A stretch of DNA of 64,000 nt. Origin: Eledone cirrhosa (lineage: Eukaryota). Where the stretch lies: positions 290,408,001-290,472,000 of the forward strand of contig OZ024742.1 in assembly GCA_964016885.1 (NCBI GenBank), read 5' to 3'. Made by a program: the position numbers and the translations under genes. Shown here one piece after another: positions 43,366-56,799 of the stretch. Each line of letters starts with the position of its first letter. Position 1 is the first letter of the stretch. Below the pieces are notes generated by a model that saw only the letters and a program-made list of their open reading frames with translations, was not told the origin of the DNA and ran no database searches.

Positions 43366-43484
43366 ATAAGTTGAAAAAAATGAAAACGAAATTTCATTTC
43401 TCACTCTTAGTATGGCACTTACTTAAATGTAAGTATGCATGCATACGTACATACATATATGTATACAGACGTACAGTAGCACGC

Positions 43485-43515
<31 letters not shown>

Positions 43516-43971
43516 TATATATACACATATGCATACAGGTACACATACATATATGCACGCATCAGTTTAGCCGACGTTTATTATAACGCCTGCTTTGTTC
43601 GTTTGTTTGTCAACAAATCGAACAGCCTGAATTTATGCCATACGGTGTTAAGGCAACCACGTCACCTTTTTGTTCAACACTGACACAGGAACGATGTACT
43701 AGTTTCAAGCTTGTTAGCTATCATCAGCACCGTTTACCCATCTGCCAGATAGTTGAACGTTCGAAAGTATATACTTTCCTTATGAAAATTAACGGCTGAG
43801 CAGCCTAATTTGCATATTGAGTGAGTTAAATCGGTCAGGCATACCGAAAACGATAAGTTGAAAAAAATGAAAACGAAATTTCATTTCTCACTCTTAGTAT
43901 GGCACTTACTTAAATATAAGTATGCATGCATACGTACATACATATATGTATACAGACGTACAGTAGCACGC

Positions 43972-44006
<35 letters not shown>

Positions 44007-44462
44007 TATATATACACATATGCATACAGGTACACATACATATATGCACGCATCAGTTTAGCCGACGTTTATTATAACGCCTGCTTTGTTCGTTTGTTTG
44101 TCAACAAATCGAACAGCCTGAATTTATGCCATACGGTGTTAAGGCAACCACGTCACCTTTTTGTTCAACACTGACACAGGAACGATGTACTAGTTTCAAG
44201 CTTGTTAGCTATCATCAGCACCGTTTACCCATCTGCCAGATAGTTGAACGTTCGAAAGTATATACTTTCCTTATGAAAATTAACGGCTGAGCAGCCTAAT
44301 TTGCATATTGAGTGAGTTAAATCGGTCAGGCATACCGAAAACGATAAGTTGAAAAAAATGAAAACGAAATTTCATTTCTCACTCTTAGTATGGCACTTAC
44401 TTAAATGTAAGTATGCATGCATACGTACATACATATATGTATACAGACGTACAGTAGCACGC

Positions 44463-44497
<35 letters not shown>

Positions 44498-44953
44498 TAT
44501 ATATACACATATGCATACAGGTACACATACATATATGCACGCATCAGTTTAGCCGACGTTTATTATAACGCCTGCTTTGTTCGTTTGTTTGTCAACAAAT
44601 CGAACAGCCTGAATTTATGCCATACGGTGTTAAGGCAACCACGTCACCTTTTTGTTCAACACTGACACAGGAACGATGTACTAGTTTCAAGCTTGTTAGC
44701 TATCATCAGCACCGTTTACCCATCTGCCAGATAGTTGAACGTTCGAAAGTATATACTTTCCTTATGAAAATTAACGGCTGAGCAGCCTAATTTGCATATT
44801 GAGTGAGTTAAATCGGTCAGGCATACCGAAAACGATAAGTTGAAAAAAATGAAAACGAAATTTCATTTCTCACTCTTAGTATGGCACTTACTTAAATGTA
44901 AGTATGCATGCATACGTACATACATATATGTATACAGACGTACAGTAGCACGC

Positions 44954-44988
<35 letters not shown>

Positions 44989-45444
44989 TATATATACACA
45001 TATGCATACAGGTACACATACATATATGCACGCATCAGTTTAGCCGACGTTTATTATAACGCCTGCTTTGTTCGTTTGTTTGTCAACAAATCGAACAGCC
45101 TGAATTTATGCCATACGGTGTTAAGGCAACCACGTCACCTTTTTGTTCAACACTGACACAGGAACGATGTACTAGTTTCAAGCTTGTTAGCTATCATCAG
45201 CACCGTTTACCCATCTGCCAGATAGTTGAACGTTCGAAAGTATATACTTTCCTTATGAAAATTAACGGCTGAGCAGCCTAATTTGCATATTGAATGAGTT
45301 AAATCGGTCAGGCATACCGAAAACGATAAGTTGAAAAAAATGAAAACGAAATTTCATTTCTCACTCTTAGTATGGCACTTACTTAAATGTAAGTATGCAT
45401 GCATACGTACATACATATATGTATACAGACGTACAGTAGCACGC

Positions 45445-45479
<35 letters not shown>

Positions 45480-45935
45480 TATATATACACATATGCATAC
45501 AGGTACACATACATATATGCACGCATCAGTTTAGCCGACGTTTATTATAACGCCTGCTTTGTTCGTTTGTTTGTCAACAAATCGAACAGCCTGAATTTAT
45601 GCCATACGGTGTTAAGGCAACCACGTCACCTTTTTGTTCAACACTGACACAGGAACGATGTACTAGTTTCAAGCTTGTTAGCTATCATCAGCACCGTTTA
45701 CCCATCTGCCAGATAGTTGAACGTTCAAAAGTATATACTTTCCTTATGAAAATTAACGGCTGAGCAGCCTAATTTGCATATTGAGTGAGTTAAATCGGTC
45801 AGGCATACCGAAAACGATAAGTTGAAAAAAATGAAAACGAAATTTCATTTCTCACTCTTAGTATGGCACTTACTTAAATGTAAGTATGCATGCATACGTA
45901 CATACATATATGTATACAGACGTACAGTAGCACGC

Positions 45936-45970
<35 letters not shown>

Positions 45971-46426
45971 TATATATACACATATGCATACAGGTACACA
46001 TACATATATGCACGCATCAGTTTAGCCGACGTTTATTATAACGCCTGCTTTGTTCGTTTGTTTGTCAACAAATCGAACAGCCTGAATTTATGCCATACGG
46101 TGTTAAGGCAACCACGTCACCTTTTTGTTCAACACTGACACAGGAACGATGTACTAGTTTCAAGCTTGTTAGCTATCATCAGCACCGTTTACCCATCTGC
46201 CAGATAGTTGAACGTTCGAAAGTATATACTTTCCTTATGAAAATTAACGGCTGAGCAGCCTAATTTGCATATTGAGTGAGTTAAATCGGTCAGGCATACC
46301 GAAAACGATAAGTTGAAAAAAATGAAAACGAAATTTCATTTCTCACTCTTAGTATGGCACTTACTTAAATGTAAGTATGCATGCATACGTACATACATAT
46401 ATGTATACAGACGTACAGTAGCACGC

Positions 46427-46461
<35 letters not shown>

Positions 46462-46641
46462 TATATATACACATATGCATACAGGTACACATACATATAT
46501 GCACGCATCAGTTTAGCCGACGTTTATTATAACGCCTGCTTTGTTGACAAACAAACGAACAAAGCAGGCGTTATAATAAACGTCGGCTAAACTGATGCGT
46601 GCATATATGTATGTGTACCTGTATGCATATGTGTATATATA

Positions 46642-46674
<33 letters not shown>

Positions 46675-47130
46675 GCGTGCTACTGTACGTCTGTATACAT
46701 ATATGTATGTACGTATGCATGCATACTTACATTTAAGTAAGTGCCATACTAAGAGTGAGAAATGAAATTTCGTTTTCATTTTTTTCAACTTATCGTTTTC
46801 GGTATGCCTGACCGATTTAACTCACTCAATATGCAAATTAGGCTGCTCAGCCGTTAATTTTCATAAGGAAAGTATATACTTTCGAACGTTCAACTATCTG
46901 GCAGATGGGTAAACGGTGCTGATGATAGCTAACAAGCTTGAAACTAGTACATCGTTCCTGTGTCAGTGTTGAACAAAAAGGTGACGTGGTTGCCTTAACA
47001 CCGTATGGCATAAATTCAGGCTGTTCGATTTGTTGACAAACAAACGAACAAAGCAGGCGTTATAATAAACGTCGGCTAAACTGATGCGTGCATATATGTA
47101 TGTGTACCTGTATGCATATGTGTATATATA

Positions 47131-47165
<35 letters not shown>

Positions 47166-47621
47166 GCGTGCTACTGTACGTCTGTATACATATATGTATG
47201 TACGTATGCATGCATACTTACATTTAAGTAAGTGCCATACTAAGAGTGAGAAATGAAATTTCGTTTTCATTTTTTTCAACTTATCGTTTTCAGTATGCCT
47301 GACCGATTTAACTCACTCAATATGCAAATTAGGCTGCTCAGCCGTTAATTTTCATAAGGAAAGTATATACTTTCGAACGTTCAACTATCTGGCAGATGGG
47401 TAAACGGTGCTGATGATAGCTAACAAGCTTGAAACTAGTACATCGTTCCTGTGTCAGTGTTGAACAAAAAGGTGACGTGGTTGCCTTAACACCGTATGGC
47501 ATAAATTCAGGCTGTTCGATTTGTTGACAAACAAACGAACAAAGCAGGCGTTATAATAAACGTCGGCTAAACTGATGCGTGCATATATGTATGTGTACCT
47601 GTATGCATATGTGTATATATA

Positions 47622-47656
<35 letters not shown>

Positions 47657-48112
47657 GCGTGCTACTGTACGTTTGTATACATATATGTATGTACGTATGC
47701 ATGCATACTTACATTTAAGTAAGTGCCATACTAAGAGTGAGAAATGAAATTTCGTTTTCATTTTTTTCAACTTATCGTTTTCGGTATGCCTGACCGATTT
47801 AACTCACTCAATATGCAAATTAGGCTGCTCAGCCGTTAATTTTCATAAGGAAAGTATATACTTTCGAACGTTCAACTATCTGGCAGATGGGTAAACGGTG
47901 CTGATGATAGCTAACAAGCTTGAAACTAGTACATCGTTCCTGTGTCAGTGTTGAACAAAAAGGTGACGTGGTTGCCTTAACACCGTATGGCATAAATTCA
48001 GGCTGTTCGATTTGTTGACAAACAAACGAACAAAGCAGGCGTTATAATAAACGTCGGCTAAACTGATGCGTGCATATATGTATGTGTACCTGTATGCATA
48101 TGTGTATATATA

Positions 48113-48143
<31 letters not shown>

Positions 48144-48199
48144 GCGTGCTACTGTACGTCTGTATACATATATGTATGTACGTATGCATGCATACTTAC
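43366..48199. repeat. Inverted tandem array of a 491-bp HHR-containing unit (retrozyme-like family B)
   Basis: 491-bp period (ORF track repeats at 43858, 44349, 44840, 45331, 45822, 46313); inversion at tttgtt 46540-46545; ~6.5 units left, ~3.4 units right. Confidence 0.93.
46913..46955 (+). ncRNA. Minimal type I HHR of family B (other copies: + 47404-47446, 47895-47937; - 43691-43733, 44182-44224, 44673-44715, 45164-45206, 45655-45697, 46146-46188)
   Basis: acggtg-CTGATGA-t agct aaca agct t-GAAA-ctag-TA-catcgt; 6-bp stem I, 4-bp stem II, palindromic stem III, GUA triplet. Confidence 0.9.
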
Positions 48200-48326
48200 C
48201 TATATATATATATATATATATATATACATACATATTATATATATATATATACATATATATATCCATACATAAGTATATATACATATACATATGTATATAT
48301 ATATGTATATATGTATATATATATAC

Positions 48327-48401
<75 letters not shown>

Positions 48402-48410
48402 TATATGTAT

Positions 48411-48592
48411 ATAGGAACCAGTAAGACCCCGACAGCTGAGCTCAAGCCGTTTCGACGGCGAATTAGCCGTCGAAACGGCTTGAGCTCAGCTGTCGGGGTC
48501 TTACTGGTTCCTATTACCCACTCTACTACCTCAAGTATTGAGTACTTTGGTGCGTTATGGTCCACCTGGTTCCTTACCACATTTCCTTCGTT
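48411..48592 (+). mobile_element. PLE pLTR remnant with a perfect 49-bp-arm hairpin centred on HHR stem II
   Basis: Arms 48411-48459 and 48466-48514, loop gaatta; GAAA-cggct tgagctc agctg-TC-ggggt is the 3' half of an HHR. Confidence 0.65.
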
Positions 48593-54715: not shown

Positions 54716-55126
54716 AGCCCATTTCTTTAATTGAAAGACTTTGAATCACTGTATTGTTTTGAATCTTACCTATTTCTTAATATTATCAACCAGCTACCAT
54801 GTGGTCTGCTTTGTTAGAACTTTGCAGTTGACATCAGAAAGTATTGCCTGCCTGATAGAAATTTCAGAACAAATAACTACTGCATTCCATCATCTGCTTT
54901 GAGGATATCTTTGTCCTTTCTCCTATGGGGACCCTAAAAAGTGTCATAGGTACTGTCATTGCTCAATAAATTAATCTACCAACTCCTTAATTACGCTGCA
55001 AAACCTGCACCTAAAATTTGTTTGTAAATTAATTTTTGTATTTACACATCAAACTCTTCTATCATAAAATGCCTATACAAAGAAAATAAATTTATTTAAT
55101 TAAATTTTTTTTTTTTAATTATCTAG

Positions 55127-56647
55127 TTGTGCAGGAAGTGTGTTGCAGAGAACATTGGTTGAATGGTATGGAATTACATGTTCAACCTGTAAAAAATACC
55201 AGCCCTGTGACAAATATGCATGAAATTCTTTTACCTAGTAAATTCCACACCCTTTTCTTCAAACAACATGAAGACATTGTTAATGATAAACTGACACATT
55301 TGGCTAAGGTGATTTCGAAACATTGTCGGTTAAATACGTTAGTTTTAGAATACAACAAAGAAAATTCTGAGAAAATCCATCAATATTTGCAAGATTTATT
55401 AAGCTCCATCACTGTTGAAGTTGTTGATATTGCAGCCTCTATTTTCAACAACATAGTTGAATCGTTTAAGAAGAAACCAGATATAAAATGTATTTACTTT
55501 GACCATGAAAATTTCCAAGCCAATATTATAGGATTTAATAAAAGCTGGGTGATTGAGAAGAAGAATTATCTTTTGAGCTTTCGTATACATGAGGATAAAT
55601 TGAACATTCATGAAAAACATATTTTGTTAGGTCTTGATTATTTTGCTAAGCTGGAAAGAGAATTTAAAGGATTAATAATCAAAGTTTATTTGGATAAACT
55701 TGTTTATGAAGGTTACAGTCCTCAAATAAATGAATGTCGACAAAAGGTGTCAGAAATTATTAAATCAATAGAAAGTTCTAAAGTGTCTTTACCATTGAAT
55801 ACTGCAATGATTATCAATAAAAAACCCGTGACGCAATATCTTATTGAAAAACTGAAAATTAAAATGTGTGTGGCCTCATGGGACATACATGATGATGATT
55901 CAATCACAATTTATGCAAGTGGAAAGAAAGATCTTTTAACTTTGGAAAAAATTATTAAAGAAACTTTTGTTTCTCATAGCTTAGATTTCATAGAGAAAAT
56001 TAAAGGTACTTCAAATTATGAATTATGGTTAAAATTACTTGAAAATCTGAATGTAGAGTACCTAGATTTGTATTTTATCGAGAAAGATGTTTTGGCATTT
56101 GTGGCTATTGACAAAATAGCTAATGATATAAAAAACAAAATTGATAACTTTATAAAATCTTTAACATATGAATCTTGCATATCAATAAATCAAAACCACT
56201 TTTTATATCTAAAGCAGTTCAATGAAAAAGATATCAACGAATTTTGTGAGAAATCTAAAATCAAGATCATATTATTCAAAGATAATCAATTACATTTAGA
56301 AGGAACAGAAAATGAAATTAAAAAAGTGGAAAATTATCTGGAATATTTAAGAAAGAATATTAGCTGGAGGGAAGAAGTATTTGAAATGTTTGGTTTTGAG
56401 GAATTTCTGAAGAGTGAAGAAGGAAGCAATTTTTTAAATGAAATGCAGTTAAATACTAAGAGCATAATATCATTAGATCTAATTTTAAAAGATGAAACAG
56501 ATGCAGTAGCAAGTTTTAAATACAAGAATTGTACAATCAATTTAATTGAGGATGATATCACAACCTTGAACACTGATGCCATTGTTAATGCTGCCAATGG
56601 TAGATTGGAACATATTGGACGACTTGCTGCAGATATTGTGAAGAAAG
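55127..56647 (+). CDS. Large internal exon (1521 bp, phase 1-1) of a PARP14/PARP9-like macrodomain protein: KH-like region + macrodomain N-terminus
   Basis: Polypyrimidine tract and AG at 55125-55126, donor AAG|GTTAGT at 56648; open frame ending INLIEDDITTLNTDAIVNAANGRLEHIGRLAADIVKK (macro VNAAN motif). Confidence 0.85.
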
Positions 56648-56799
56648 GTTAGTGTTAATATTTTATAATTAACCCTTAATACCAACCTGCCCCAAACTAC
56701 TTCTGGTCCTATACATCCATTTTAAAGAGTTCCTATTTAAATTAATATCTTTCAGCATAATTTTATATAAAATCTATGTTAAGTTACTATCTTAGTAAT

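What the first reader, a model, noticed from the sequence alone, without database searches (positions are those of the whole stretch)
43366..48199. 491-bp hammerhead-ribozyme unit amplified into a ~10-mer giant palindrome (retrozyme-like family B)
Seen: a non-coding 491-bp unit with a complete minimal type I HHR (acggtg CUGAUGA uagcu aaca agcuu GAAA cuag UA caucgu), nine intact HHRs, units differing by only a few point changes, an inversion at a 6-nt microhomology (46540-46545), and both outer ends being sense 3' ends fused to (TA)n. Established: animal non-LTR retrozymes are tandem HHR repeats processed to circular RNAs and thought to be mobilised by Penelope-like elements; minimal HHRs with a palindromic stem III act as dimers. 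Inference: a young retrozyme insertion made by rolling-circle reverse transcription from both broken target ends. The unit is larger than the few-hundred-nt animal retrozymes I recall, and the long two-armed inverted multimer may be undescribed.
Basis: partly seen in the sequence, partly recalled or inferred. Interest (0 to 1): 0.9.

Follow-up and report, generated by a model that had tools for sequence, protein, structure and literature searches.

The report
Ribozyme repeat inserted by Penelope retrotransposons
This is a young insertion of a 491-base non-coding repeat carrying a predicted self-cutting RNA motif, found about 10,000 times in this animal genome, and its two outward-facing arms end at two fixed points just as the genome's Penelope-type jumping genes do, so those genes likely copy it, probably from a circular RNA.

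Summary
In detail: 6.5 + 3.4 head-to-head units of 491 bp, nine identical type I hammerheads, a 6-nt junction overlap, and both outer ends sense 3' ends on (TA)n. It is not a one-off or an artefact: the hammerhead core occurs 10,391 times in the genome, and 33 of 58 insertions typed are two-armed. New here: the two arms end at two fixed sites about 60 nt apart, one each (25 of 27 typed, p≈3e-6). This is the 'tail' signature of Penelope-like elements (PLEs). Two Hydra-clade PLE families in this genome follow the same rule (7 of 7; 5 of 5), one intact copy lies in this window, and three insertions join the repeat to Hydra-type PLE sequence. Verdict: a new family of animal non-LTR retrozymes, mobilised by PLE machinery priming from both ends of a break. 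A circular template is favoured (arms share a haplotype, point variants are unit-private, no run-off at the cut site) but not shown; cleavage and transcription are untested. The unit size is within the published range, and the inverted layout is known for PLEs, though I found it in no retrozyme paper searched.

The parts
43089..43368 (.). left (TA)n-rich target tract
43366..46545 (-). left arm, 6.48 tandem units; its 3' end at 43366 is fixed site B (phase 335 after the ribozyme cut)
46540..46545 (.). head-to-head junction, 6-nt microhomology joining phases 98 and 80
46540..48199 (+). right arm, 3.38 tandem units; its 3' end at 48199 is fixed site A (phase 272)
48201..48413 (.). right (TA)n-rich target tract
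46950..47440 (+). one cut-to-cut 491-nt monomer (predicted circular RNA, 70% paired)
47085..47224 (+). internal TA/CA microsatellite long hairpin (phases 136-275); its length and interruptions mark each insertion's haplotype
47222..47284 (+). 'tail' between priming sites A and B (phases 273-335), shown in one unit
46913..46955 (+). type I hammerhead, predicted cut after 46949
47404..47446 (+). type I hammerhead
47895..47937 (+). type I hammerhead
46146..46188 (-). type I hammerhead
45655..45697 (-). type I hammerhead
45164..45206 (-). type I hammerhead
44673..44715 (-). type I hammerhead
44182..44224 (-). type I hammerhead
43691..43733 (-). type I hammerhead
27043..27862 (.). second, short two-armed insertion of the same family (2 hammerheads; both ends at site B; arms of different haplotype)
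1323..5904 (+). intact Hydra-clade Penelope-like element (ORF 2145-4358, 737 aa) with the same two-armed, two-site layout; example of the candidate partner class

Best explanation
The array is one recent insertion of a non-coding, hammerhead-bearing repeat (an animal non-LTR retrozyme) that was likely written into a (TA)n tract by the reverse transcriptase/endonuclease of a Penelope-like element (probably Hydra clade), priming from both ends of the break and probably copying a circular 491-nt RNA several times round. Steps: (1) tandem transcripts are cut by the hammerhead, likely as dimers via the palindromic helix III, and ligated to circles (inferred). (2) The PLE enzyme cuts both strands in (TA)n (inferred; the target preference is shown). 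(3) One 3'-OH primes at site A and the other at site B, about 277 and 335 nt after the cut site (end pattern shown, priming inferred). (4) Each enzyme runs a variable number of turns (multimers shown, circle inferred). (5) The two cDNA ends anneal by a short microhomology and are filled in, giving a head-to-head junction (overlaps shown, annealing inferred).
For: Orientation: 33 of 58 insertions are head-to-head with 3' ends outward; neighbouring hammerheads are 17 '-+' vs 0 '+-' among the first 100 listed. Ends: 25 A+B, 2 B+B, 0 A+A of 27 typed (p=2.8e-6); three more long arrays are A+B. Autonomous PLEs follow the same rule: Hydra-1 7 of 7, Hydra-2 5 of 5; both families have open ORFs with Hydra motifs. 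An Anolis PLE cuts and extends both strands and starts at two internal RNA sites that define the tail (PMC11167929). Three chimeras (L040, L058, L061) join the repeat to Hydra-type PLE sequence, each with one first-site and one second-site end. One template per insertion: arms concordant at subfamily markers in 20 of 25 loci vs 10.8% for unrelated arms; each array has its own period in both arms. Circle: 85 unit-private substitutions vs 1 scored as shared across arms, a tie artefact; 1 of 104 scored 5' ends lies near the cut site; no other array of 7 or more units carries the window's haplotype. Ribozyme under constraint: abundant variants fall only at N7, loop II and the G.U pair of helix I, and subfamilies show G.U, A-U and U.G at that pair.
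Against: Cleavage, circles and transcription were not observed. The isolated ribozyme does not fold to the hammerhead as its lowest-energy monomer (-1.1 vs -8.7 kcal/mol) and has U.U at the base of helix II. In the Anolis PLE uncleaved RNA is the main substrate, and 8 of 9 Xenopus retrozyme dimers did not cleave in vitro. Two arrays carry the same (TA)n variant at the same unit rank in both arms (this window's outermost units; C1:84.36M rank 5), as a linear multimer would give. Some arrays show local duplications (L035, L038, C4:286.3M). No blastn similarity between the unit and the Hydra-1 terminal repeat, so the partner family is not pinned. The chimeras could be deletion fusions (3 of 3 fitting the rule has p=0.125 by itself).
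Confidence: 0.7

Rival explanations
1. Same PLE machinery and two-site priming, but the template is an uncleaved linear read-through multimer from a donor array; the hammerhead is dispensable or acts at another step.
For: Unprocessed RNA is the main substrate of an Anolis PLE in vitro. Weak monomer fold. Rank-matched (TA)n variants in two arrays. Absence of run-off at the cut site fits this model too.
Against: Donor-inherited point variants should be shared between arms: 85 private vs 1 artefactual. The window's exact haplotype occurs elsewhere only in a 5-unit sister insertion and one unit of an older 4-unit array; the one long related array differs. 5'-truncating linear copying should shorten arrays, yet arms reach 19 hammerheads.
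Confidence: 0.18
2. A short PLE-type insertion was expanded in place afterwards by unequal crossing-over or slippage (satellite birth).
For: Scenario discussed in bioRxiv 10.64898/2026.07.22.740005. Same-arm shared variants in L035, L038, L048 and a 7-unit duplication at C4:286.3M.
Against: Only 6 same-arm shared variants vs 85 private ones; none is shared in the window's array. Oppositely oriented arms share period and haplotype. Arrays only about 0.1% diverged already hold 10 units.
Confidence: 0.07
3. The unit is the pseudo-LTR of an autonomous PLE not yet found, and the arrays are truncated copies of it.
For: Xenopus retrozymes resemble pLTRs. PLE fragments lie near many copies.
Against: In 58 typed insertions plus 7 long arrays no copy is placed as a pLTR of an ORF; the two direct fusions cut the PLE ORF internally. 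The Hydra-1 and Hydra-2 terminal repeats are different sequences. The sample is about 1% of the insertions.
Confidence: 0.03
4. Long-read fold-back or assembly artefact.
For: Inverted repeats and (TA)n tracts are hard to assemble. The junction itself was not seen in the short-read contigs laid (its tables were cut).
Against: Flanks are not mirrored. Arms are unequal, end at different fixed sites and carry private variants. The layout recurs with different junctions in 33 loci and in a sister insertion on another contig.
Confidence: 0.02

Closest known systems
Animal non-LTR retrozymes (PMC7229834; bioRxiv 10.64898/2026.07.22.740005)
   Same: Non-coding tandem unit, type I hammerhead in every unit, GC about 36%, dispersed multimers, strongly self-paired monomer; axolotl ribozymes share the 1-bp helix III with palindromic tetraloop (Amex1) and the U.U base of helix II (Amex2).
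   Different: Those papers describe head-to-tail arrays; in the passages and texts read they report no inverted arms or fixed priming sites, and PMC7761336 says the repeats show no motif pointing to the partner. Circles and cleavage were shown there, not here.
Endonuclease-bearing Penelope-like elements, Hydra clade (PMC8557442; PMC3846280)
   Same: Inverted 5'-truncated arm, tail at one end only, (TA)n target, hammerhead, no discernible target duplication.
   Different: Here there is no ORF, both arms are multimers of one unit, the tail is about 60 nt (30-40 published; about 85 in the window's PLE), and the ribozyme lies 277-335 nt upstream of the ends.
Anolis Poseidon PLE in vitro (PMC11167929)
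   Same: Both strands cut and extended; two internal start sites on the RNA define the tail; AT-rich target.
   Different: That paper saw no strand difference in start site and no need for cleavage; here ends pair strictly A+B and the substrate is non-autonomous.
Non-autonomous Chlamys elements such as MRC1 (PMC8557442)
   Same: Non-autonomous PLE passengers with multicopy head-to-tail insertions.
   Different: Most Chlamys lack canonical hammerheads, and they resemble their autonomous partners at the 3' end; no such similarity was found here.
L1 twin priming (recalled, no call)
   Same: Two target ends prime cDNA and meet at a microhomology, giving an inversion.
   Different: In L1 the second primer is internal at variable sites and the arms do not overlap in content; here both sites are fixed and both arms hold several full units.

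Membership tests
Animal non-LTR retrozyme | Tandem units, each with a complete type I hammerhead (two or more consecutive) | tested here: met
   9 of 9 cores intact; 6 + 3 consecutive
Animal non-LTR retrozyme | Non-coding; no LTR structure; GC below 50% | tested here: met
   longest ATG ORF 47 aa sense, 82 aa antisense; GC about 0.36; no tRNA; PBS/PPT not searched separately
Animal non-LTR retrozyme | Unit size in known range | tested here: met
   491 nt vs 51-972 bp; above the 170-400 nt of PMC7229834
Animal non-LTR retrozyme | Dispersed multicopy family | tested here: met
   10,391 exact cores, reversed-pattern control 0
Animal non-LTR retrozyme | Highly self-paired monomer | tested here: met
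   z -8.4 whole unit (inflated by the microsatellite hairpin); z -2.0 to -2.6 by segment; circle 70% paired
Animal non-LTR retrozyme | Self-cleavage as monomer or dimer | not testable with these tools
   only sequence constraint and folding energies
Animal non-LTR retrozyme | Expressed as linear and circular RNA | not testable with these tools
   no RNA holder listed
PLE insertion product | Inverted 5'-truncated arm, head-to-head | tested here: met
   33 of 58; 17 '-+' vs 0 '+-'
PLE insertion product | Tail at one end only (two start sites) | tested here: met
   25 of 27 A+B
PLE insertion product | Microsatellite (TA)n target | tested here: met
   nearly all typed 3' ends abut (TA)n; exceptions include L041, L061, L064 and L069
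Autonomous PLE or pLTR of one | RT + GIY-YIG ORF flanked by this repeat | tested here: not met
   no ORF in the unit; no sampled copy placed as pLTR; about 1% of insertions sampled
PLE minimal hammerhead (min-HHR, PMC4209133) | Helix II 7-8 bp, helix I 4-5 bp, helix III absent | tested here: not met
   helix I 6 bp, helix II 4 bp, 1-bp helix III with palindromic loop = canonical metazoan form
Hydra clade (window PLE 2145-4358) | RWK-like, DKT, CxCX5C, CxxC and CxH around the EN; C-terminal GIY-YIG; (TA)n target; hammerhead | tested here: met
   RWR 37, DKT 118, CNCRDRSKC 596, CDLC 694, CRH 721 vs section read; no tree built; no Pfam hit for this protein

The most novel reading that the evidence does not exclude
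Animal retrozyme circles are inserted by a two-handed Penelope complex: each end of a double-strand break is primed at its own dedicated site on the RNA (first site on one end, second on the other, even when the two ends use different RNA families), and each enzyme rolls round the circle, building palindromes up to about 11 kb in one step. This would be a direct genomic footprint of the retrozyme-PLE partnership and would explain the PLE tail as a strict one-site-per-end rule.
Probability: 0.45. Interest if true: 0.72.

Novelty: new member of a known kind. Interest (0 to 1): 0.52.

Why it matters
Which enzyme mobilises animal retrozymes, and how, has rested on co-occurrence and pLTR similarity. 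Here the retrozyme carries the PLE insertion signature at thousands of young loci, with two mapped start sites, chimeras with Hydra-type PLEs and intact partner ORFs in the same genome. Together these give a ready in vitro test of rolling-circle retrotransposition and of why PLE insertions are inverted with a tail at one end. It also identifies a source of thousands of kilobase palindromes (double-stranded RNA, fragile sites; inferred) in this genome.

Tried and rejected
Rfam scan: no hammerhead family at gathering score. Expression: no RNA holder listed. Contigs of four coded runs laid on one unit showed no strand-change joint and cannot show ends or strand; two runs from other organisms held only 1-2 contigs, so no cross-species claim is made. 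L048's variants, first read as private to one locus, proved to be a 271-copy subfamily, so that argument for a circle was dropped. The palindrome at 48414-48512 was tested as a hammerhead element; only 21 heterogeneous upstream cores were found, rejected. Pol III origin: no sense-strand A/B box, and T4-T7 runs in the sense strand; no tRNA. A shared motif or fold between the retrozyme and Hydra priming sites: nothing convincing; the ends are confounded with the TA target. Junction scan gave 52 rows; 33 were set aside (self-complementary microsatellite hits, or apparent inserts unresolved against one reference haplotype), leaving 19, of which 13 have overlaps of 2 or more (null 17.5%, p=1.4e-6). 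Lünse 2017 is not held. Earlier-findings look-ups by place and by sequence were blank.
Full report
OBSERVATION. The window holds two oppositely oriented arrays of a 491-bp unit, 43366-46545 (6.48 units, sense on -) and 46540-48199 (3.38 units, sense on +), between (TA)n tracts. Nine identical type I hammerhead cores are present and all seven cut-to-cut monomers measure 491 nt. Units differ by five single-unit substitutions (about 0.1%) and three (TA)n length changes. The junction has a 6-nt overlap. The flanks are LINE pieces and microsatellites, not mirror images. The unit is non-coding and holds no tRNA.

THE RIBOZYME. Helix I has 6 bp, helix II 4 bp over a U.U pair, helix III 1 bp with a palindromic tetraloop, and the triplet is GUA. 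This is the canonical metazoan form that needs dimers (PMC4209133, part 1 of 4 read), close to the axolotl ribozymes (PMC7229834 passages). As a monomer the hammerhead fold is weak (-1.1 vs -8.7 kcal/mol); the palindrome can pair between copies (-4.8). In contigs of two public runs of one organism, 32 variant rows were listed over 431 nt; those within the ribozyme fall only at N7, loop II and the G.U position of helix I, where one change restores a pair and a minor one breaks it. Diverged subfamilies show G.U, A-U and U.G at that pair with the core kept, while single decayed copies also occur. Many other hammerhead families with palindromic helix III occur in the fetched loci. Activity is inferred, not shown.

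THE FAMILY. The exact 36-nt core occurs 10,391 times in the 3.0-Gb genome (control 0), roughly 5,400 insertions by extrapolation from the first 100 matches. I fetched 54 stretches (14 picked by identity to the window, 40 from the first listed matches; all on contigs C1-C2) and typed 58 insertions including two in the window: 33 head-to-head, 22 one-armed, 2 with an extra neighbour, and 1 scored '+-' through a tiny hit (head-to-head). 3' ends cluster at site A (phase about 272-277) and site B (about 330-335). Of the 33, 27 had both ends typed: 25 A+B, 2 B+B, 0 A+A (p=2.8e-6); 6 were untyped. The two B+B cases are atypical: one has an inverted copy of its TA-rich flank over at least 900 nt, the other has arms of two haplotypes. 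Three of four further two-armed arrays were A+B; the fourth ran off the fetched stretch. 13 of 19 resolved junctions overlap by 2 nt or more.

THE PARTNER. The window itself contains an intact PLE (1323-5904; ORF 737 aa) with the Hydra motifs described in PMC8557442 section 11; 61 close copies were scored, most without stops. Of 30 copies examined, 7 showed both ends and all 7 pair a first-site with a second-site end (4 of them inferred from running past site 1 at the edge of the locus). A second Hydra-type family with 809-aa open copies does the same in 5 of 5 typed among 12 fetched. Three insertions mix RNAs. In L061 a retrozyme arm is fused without TA to a truncated Hydra-2 copy; in L058 a site-A arm continues into Hydra-2 ORF and the far end is Hydra-2 site 2; in L040 the second arm is a Hydra-type terminal repeat. 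Each has one first-site and one second-site end. Deletion fusions are not excluded. No sequence similarity links the unit to the Hydra-1 repeat, so the family is not pinned.

MECHANISM. Sense 3' ends facing outward are what results when both 3'-OH ends of a break prime cDNA. An Anolis PLE cuts and extends both strands and starts at two internal RNA sites that bound the tail (PMC11167929, parts 1-2 of 4 read). Inverted arms, a tail at one end and (TA)n targets are documented for PLEs (PMC8557442 passages; PMC3846280 passages; the latter proposes self-priming instead, which does not explain the one-site-per-end rule). Both arms usually come from one template: 20 of 25 loci are concordant at 18 markers vs 10.8% by chance; median arm distance is 0.5% vs 3.2% between loci. 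For a circle: 85 unit-private substitutions, 6 shared within an arm, 1 artefactual across arms in 26 loci; no pile-up of 5' ends at the cut; the window's exact haplotype occurs in 14 places, namely 8 here, 5 in a sister insertion and 1 unit of an older array, and the only long related array differs. Against: rank-matched (TA)n variants in two arrays, local duplications, uncleaved RNA as PLE substrate in vitro, and 1 of 9 Xenopus dimers cleaving. That PLE enzymes lack RNase H, which would spare a circular template, is recalled.

COMPARISON AND NOVELTY. It meets every testable feature of animal non-LTR retrozymes. 491 nt is inside the 51-972 bp range of bioRxiv 10.64898/2026.07.22.740005 (parts 1-3 of 5 read, main text complete), which already argues that retrozymes are PLE passengers; PMC7229834 (Discussion) proposed tandem cDNA from circles. 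Non-autonomous multicopy PLE passengers are known. I found no description of two-armed retrozyme arrays or of paired priming sites in searches and term look-ups; supplements of these papers were not seen and subscription papers are missing. An earlier scan note reports a ribozyme-free tandem element with PLE-type ends in another genome (untested lead).

VERDICT. Real, young, and a new family of a known kind. The value lies in the direct PLE footprint and the ready test system: interest 0.52.

Noticed in passing
window 1323-5904: Intact young Hydra-clade PLE (737-aa ORF, hammerhead in its repeats, inverted 5' arm, tail of about 85 nt); many open copies genome-wide; no Pfam hit.
   Followed up: yes
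window 11342-16031: A second retrozyme family (about 570-bp unit; type I hammerhead with long branched helix II and palindromic helix III) with the same two-armed layout; its ends lie 77 and 195 nt after the cut.
   Followed up: partly
window 27043-27862: Short two-armed copy of the same family whose arms are different haplotypes and both end at site B.
   Followed up: yes
window 48414-48512; L052, L072: Perfect 99-nt palindrome of a short element (family C) in TA; the same end forms the second arm of two retrozyme insertions and is fused to many unrelated sequences.
   Followed up: partly
window 17210-17400: Short hairpin insertion in TA with another hammerhead variant, probably a PLE end.
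   Followed up: no
L048 5600-8001; L032; L145-L146: A 310-bp tandem hammerhead family, also two-armed, often beside this family in the same TA tracts.
   Followed up: no
L031 flanks (G000:C2:351.36M): Both flanks carry an inverted copy of the same TA-rich microsatellite over at least 900 nt, suggesting a secondary fold-back event.
   Followed up: partly
L145-L146 (G000:C4:286.34M): 18-hammerhead arm with a variant pair repeated 7 units apart: local duplication or a multimeric template.
   Followed up: partly
L169, L170: Second Hydra-type family with open 809-aa ORFs and a long 3' region; partner in two chimeras.
   Followed up: yes
window 7281-10616 (-), 35318-38367, 40235-43080: Several LINE copies with endonuclease and RT (RTE-like by recall); one has an open 1111-aa frame.
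   Followed up: no
window 55090-56652 (+): 520-aa open frame ending in a macro-domain-like start (recalled, not tested); probably a host exon.
   Followed up: no
whole window: Rfam 15 gathering thresholds miss all of the roughly 25 hammerhead-like motifs in this window.
   Followed up: no
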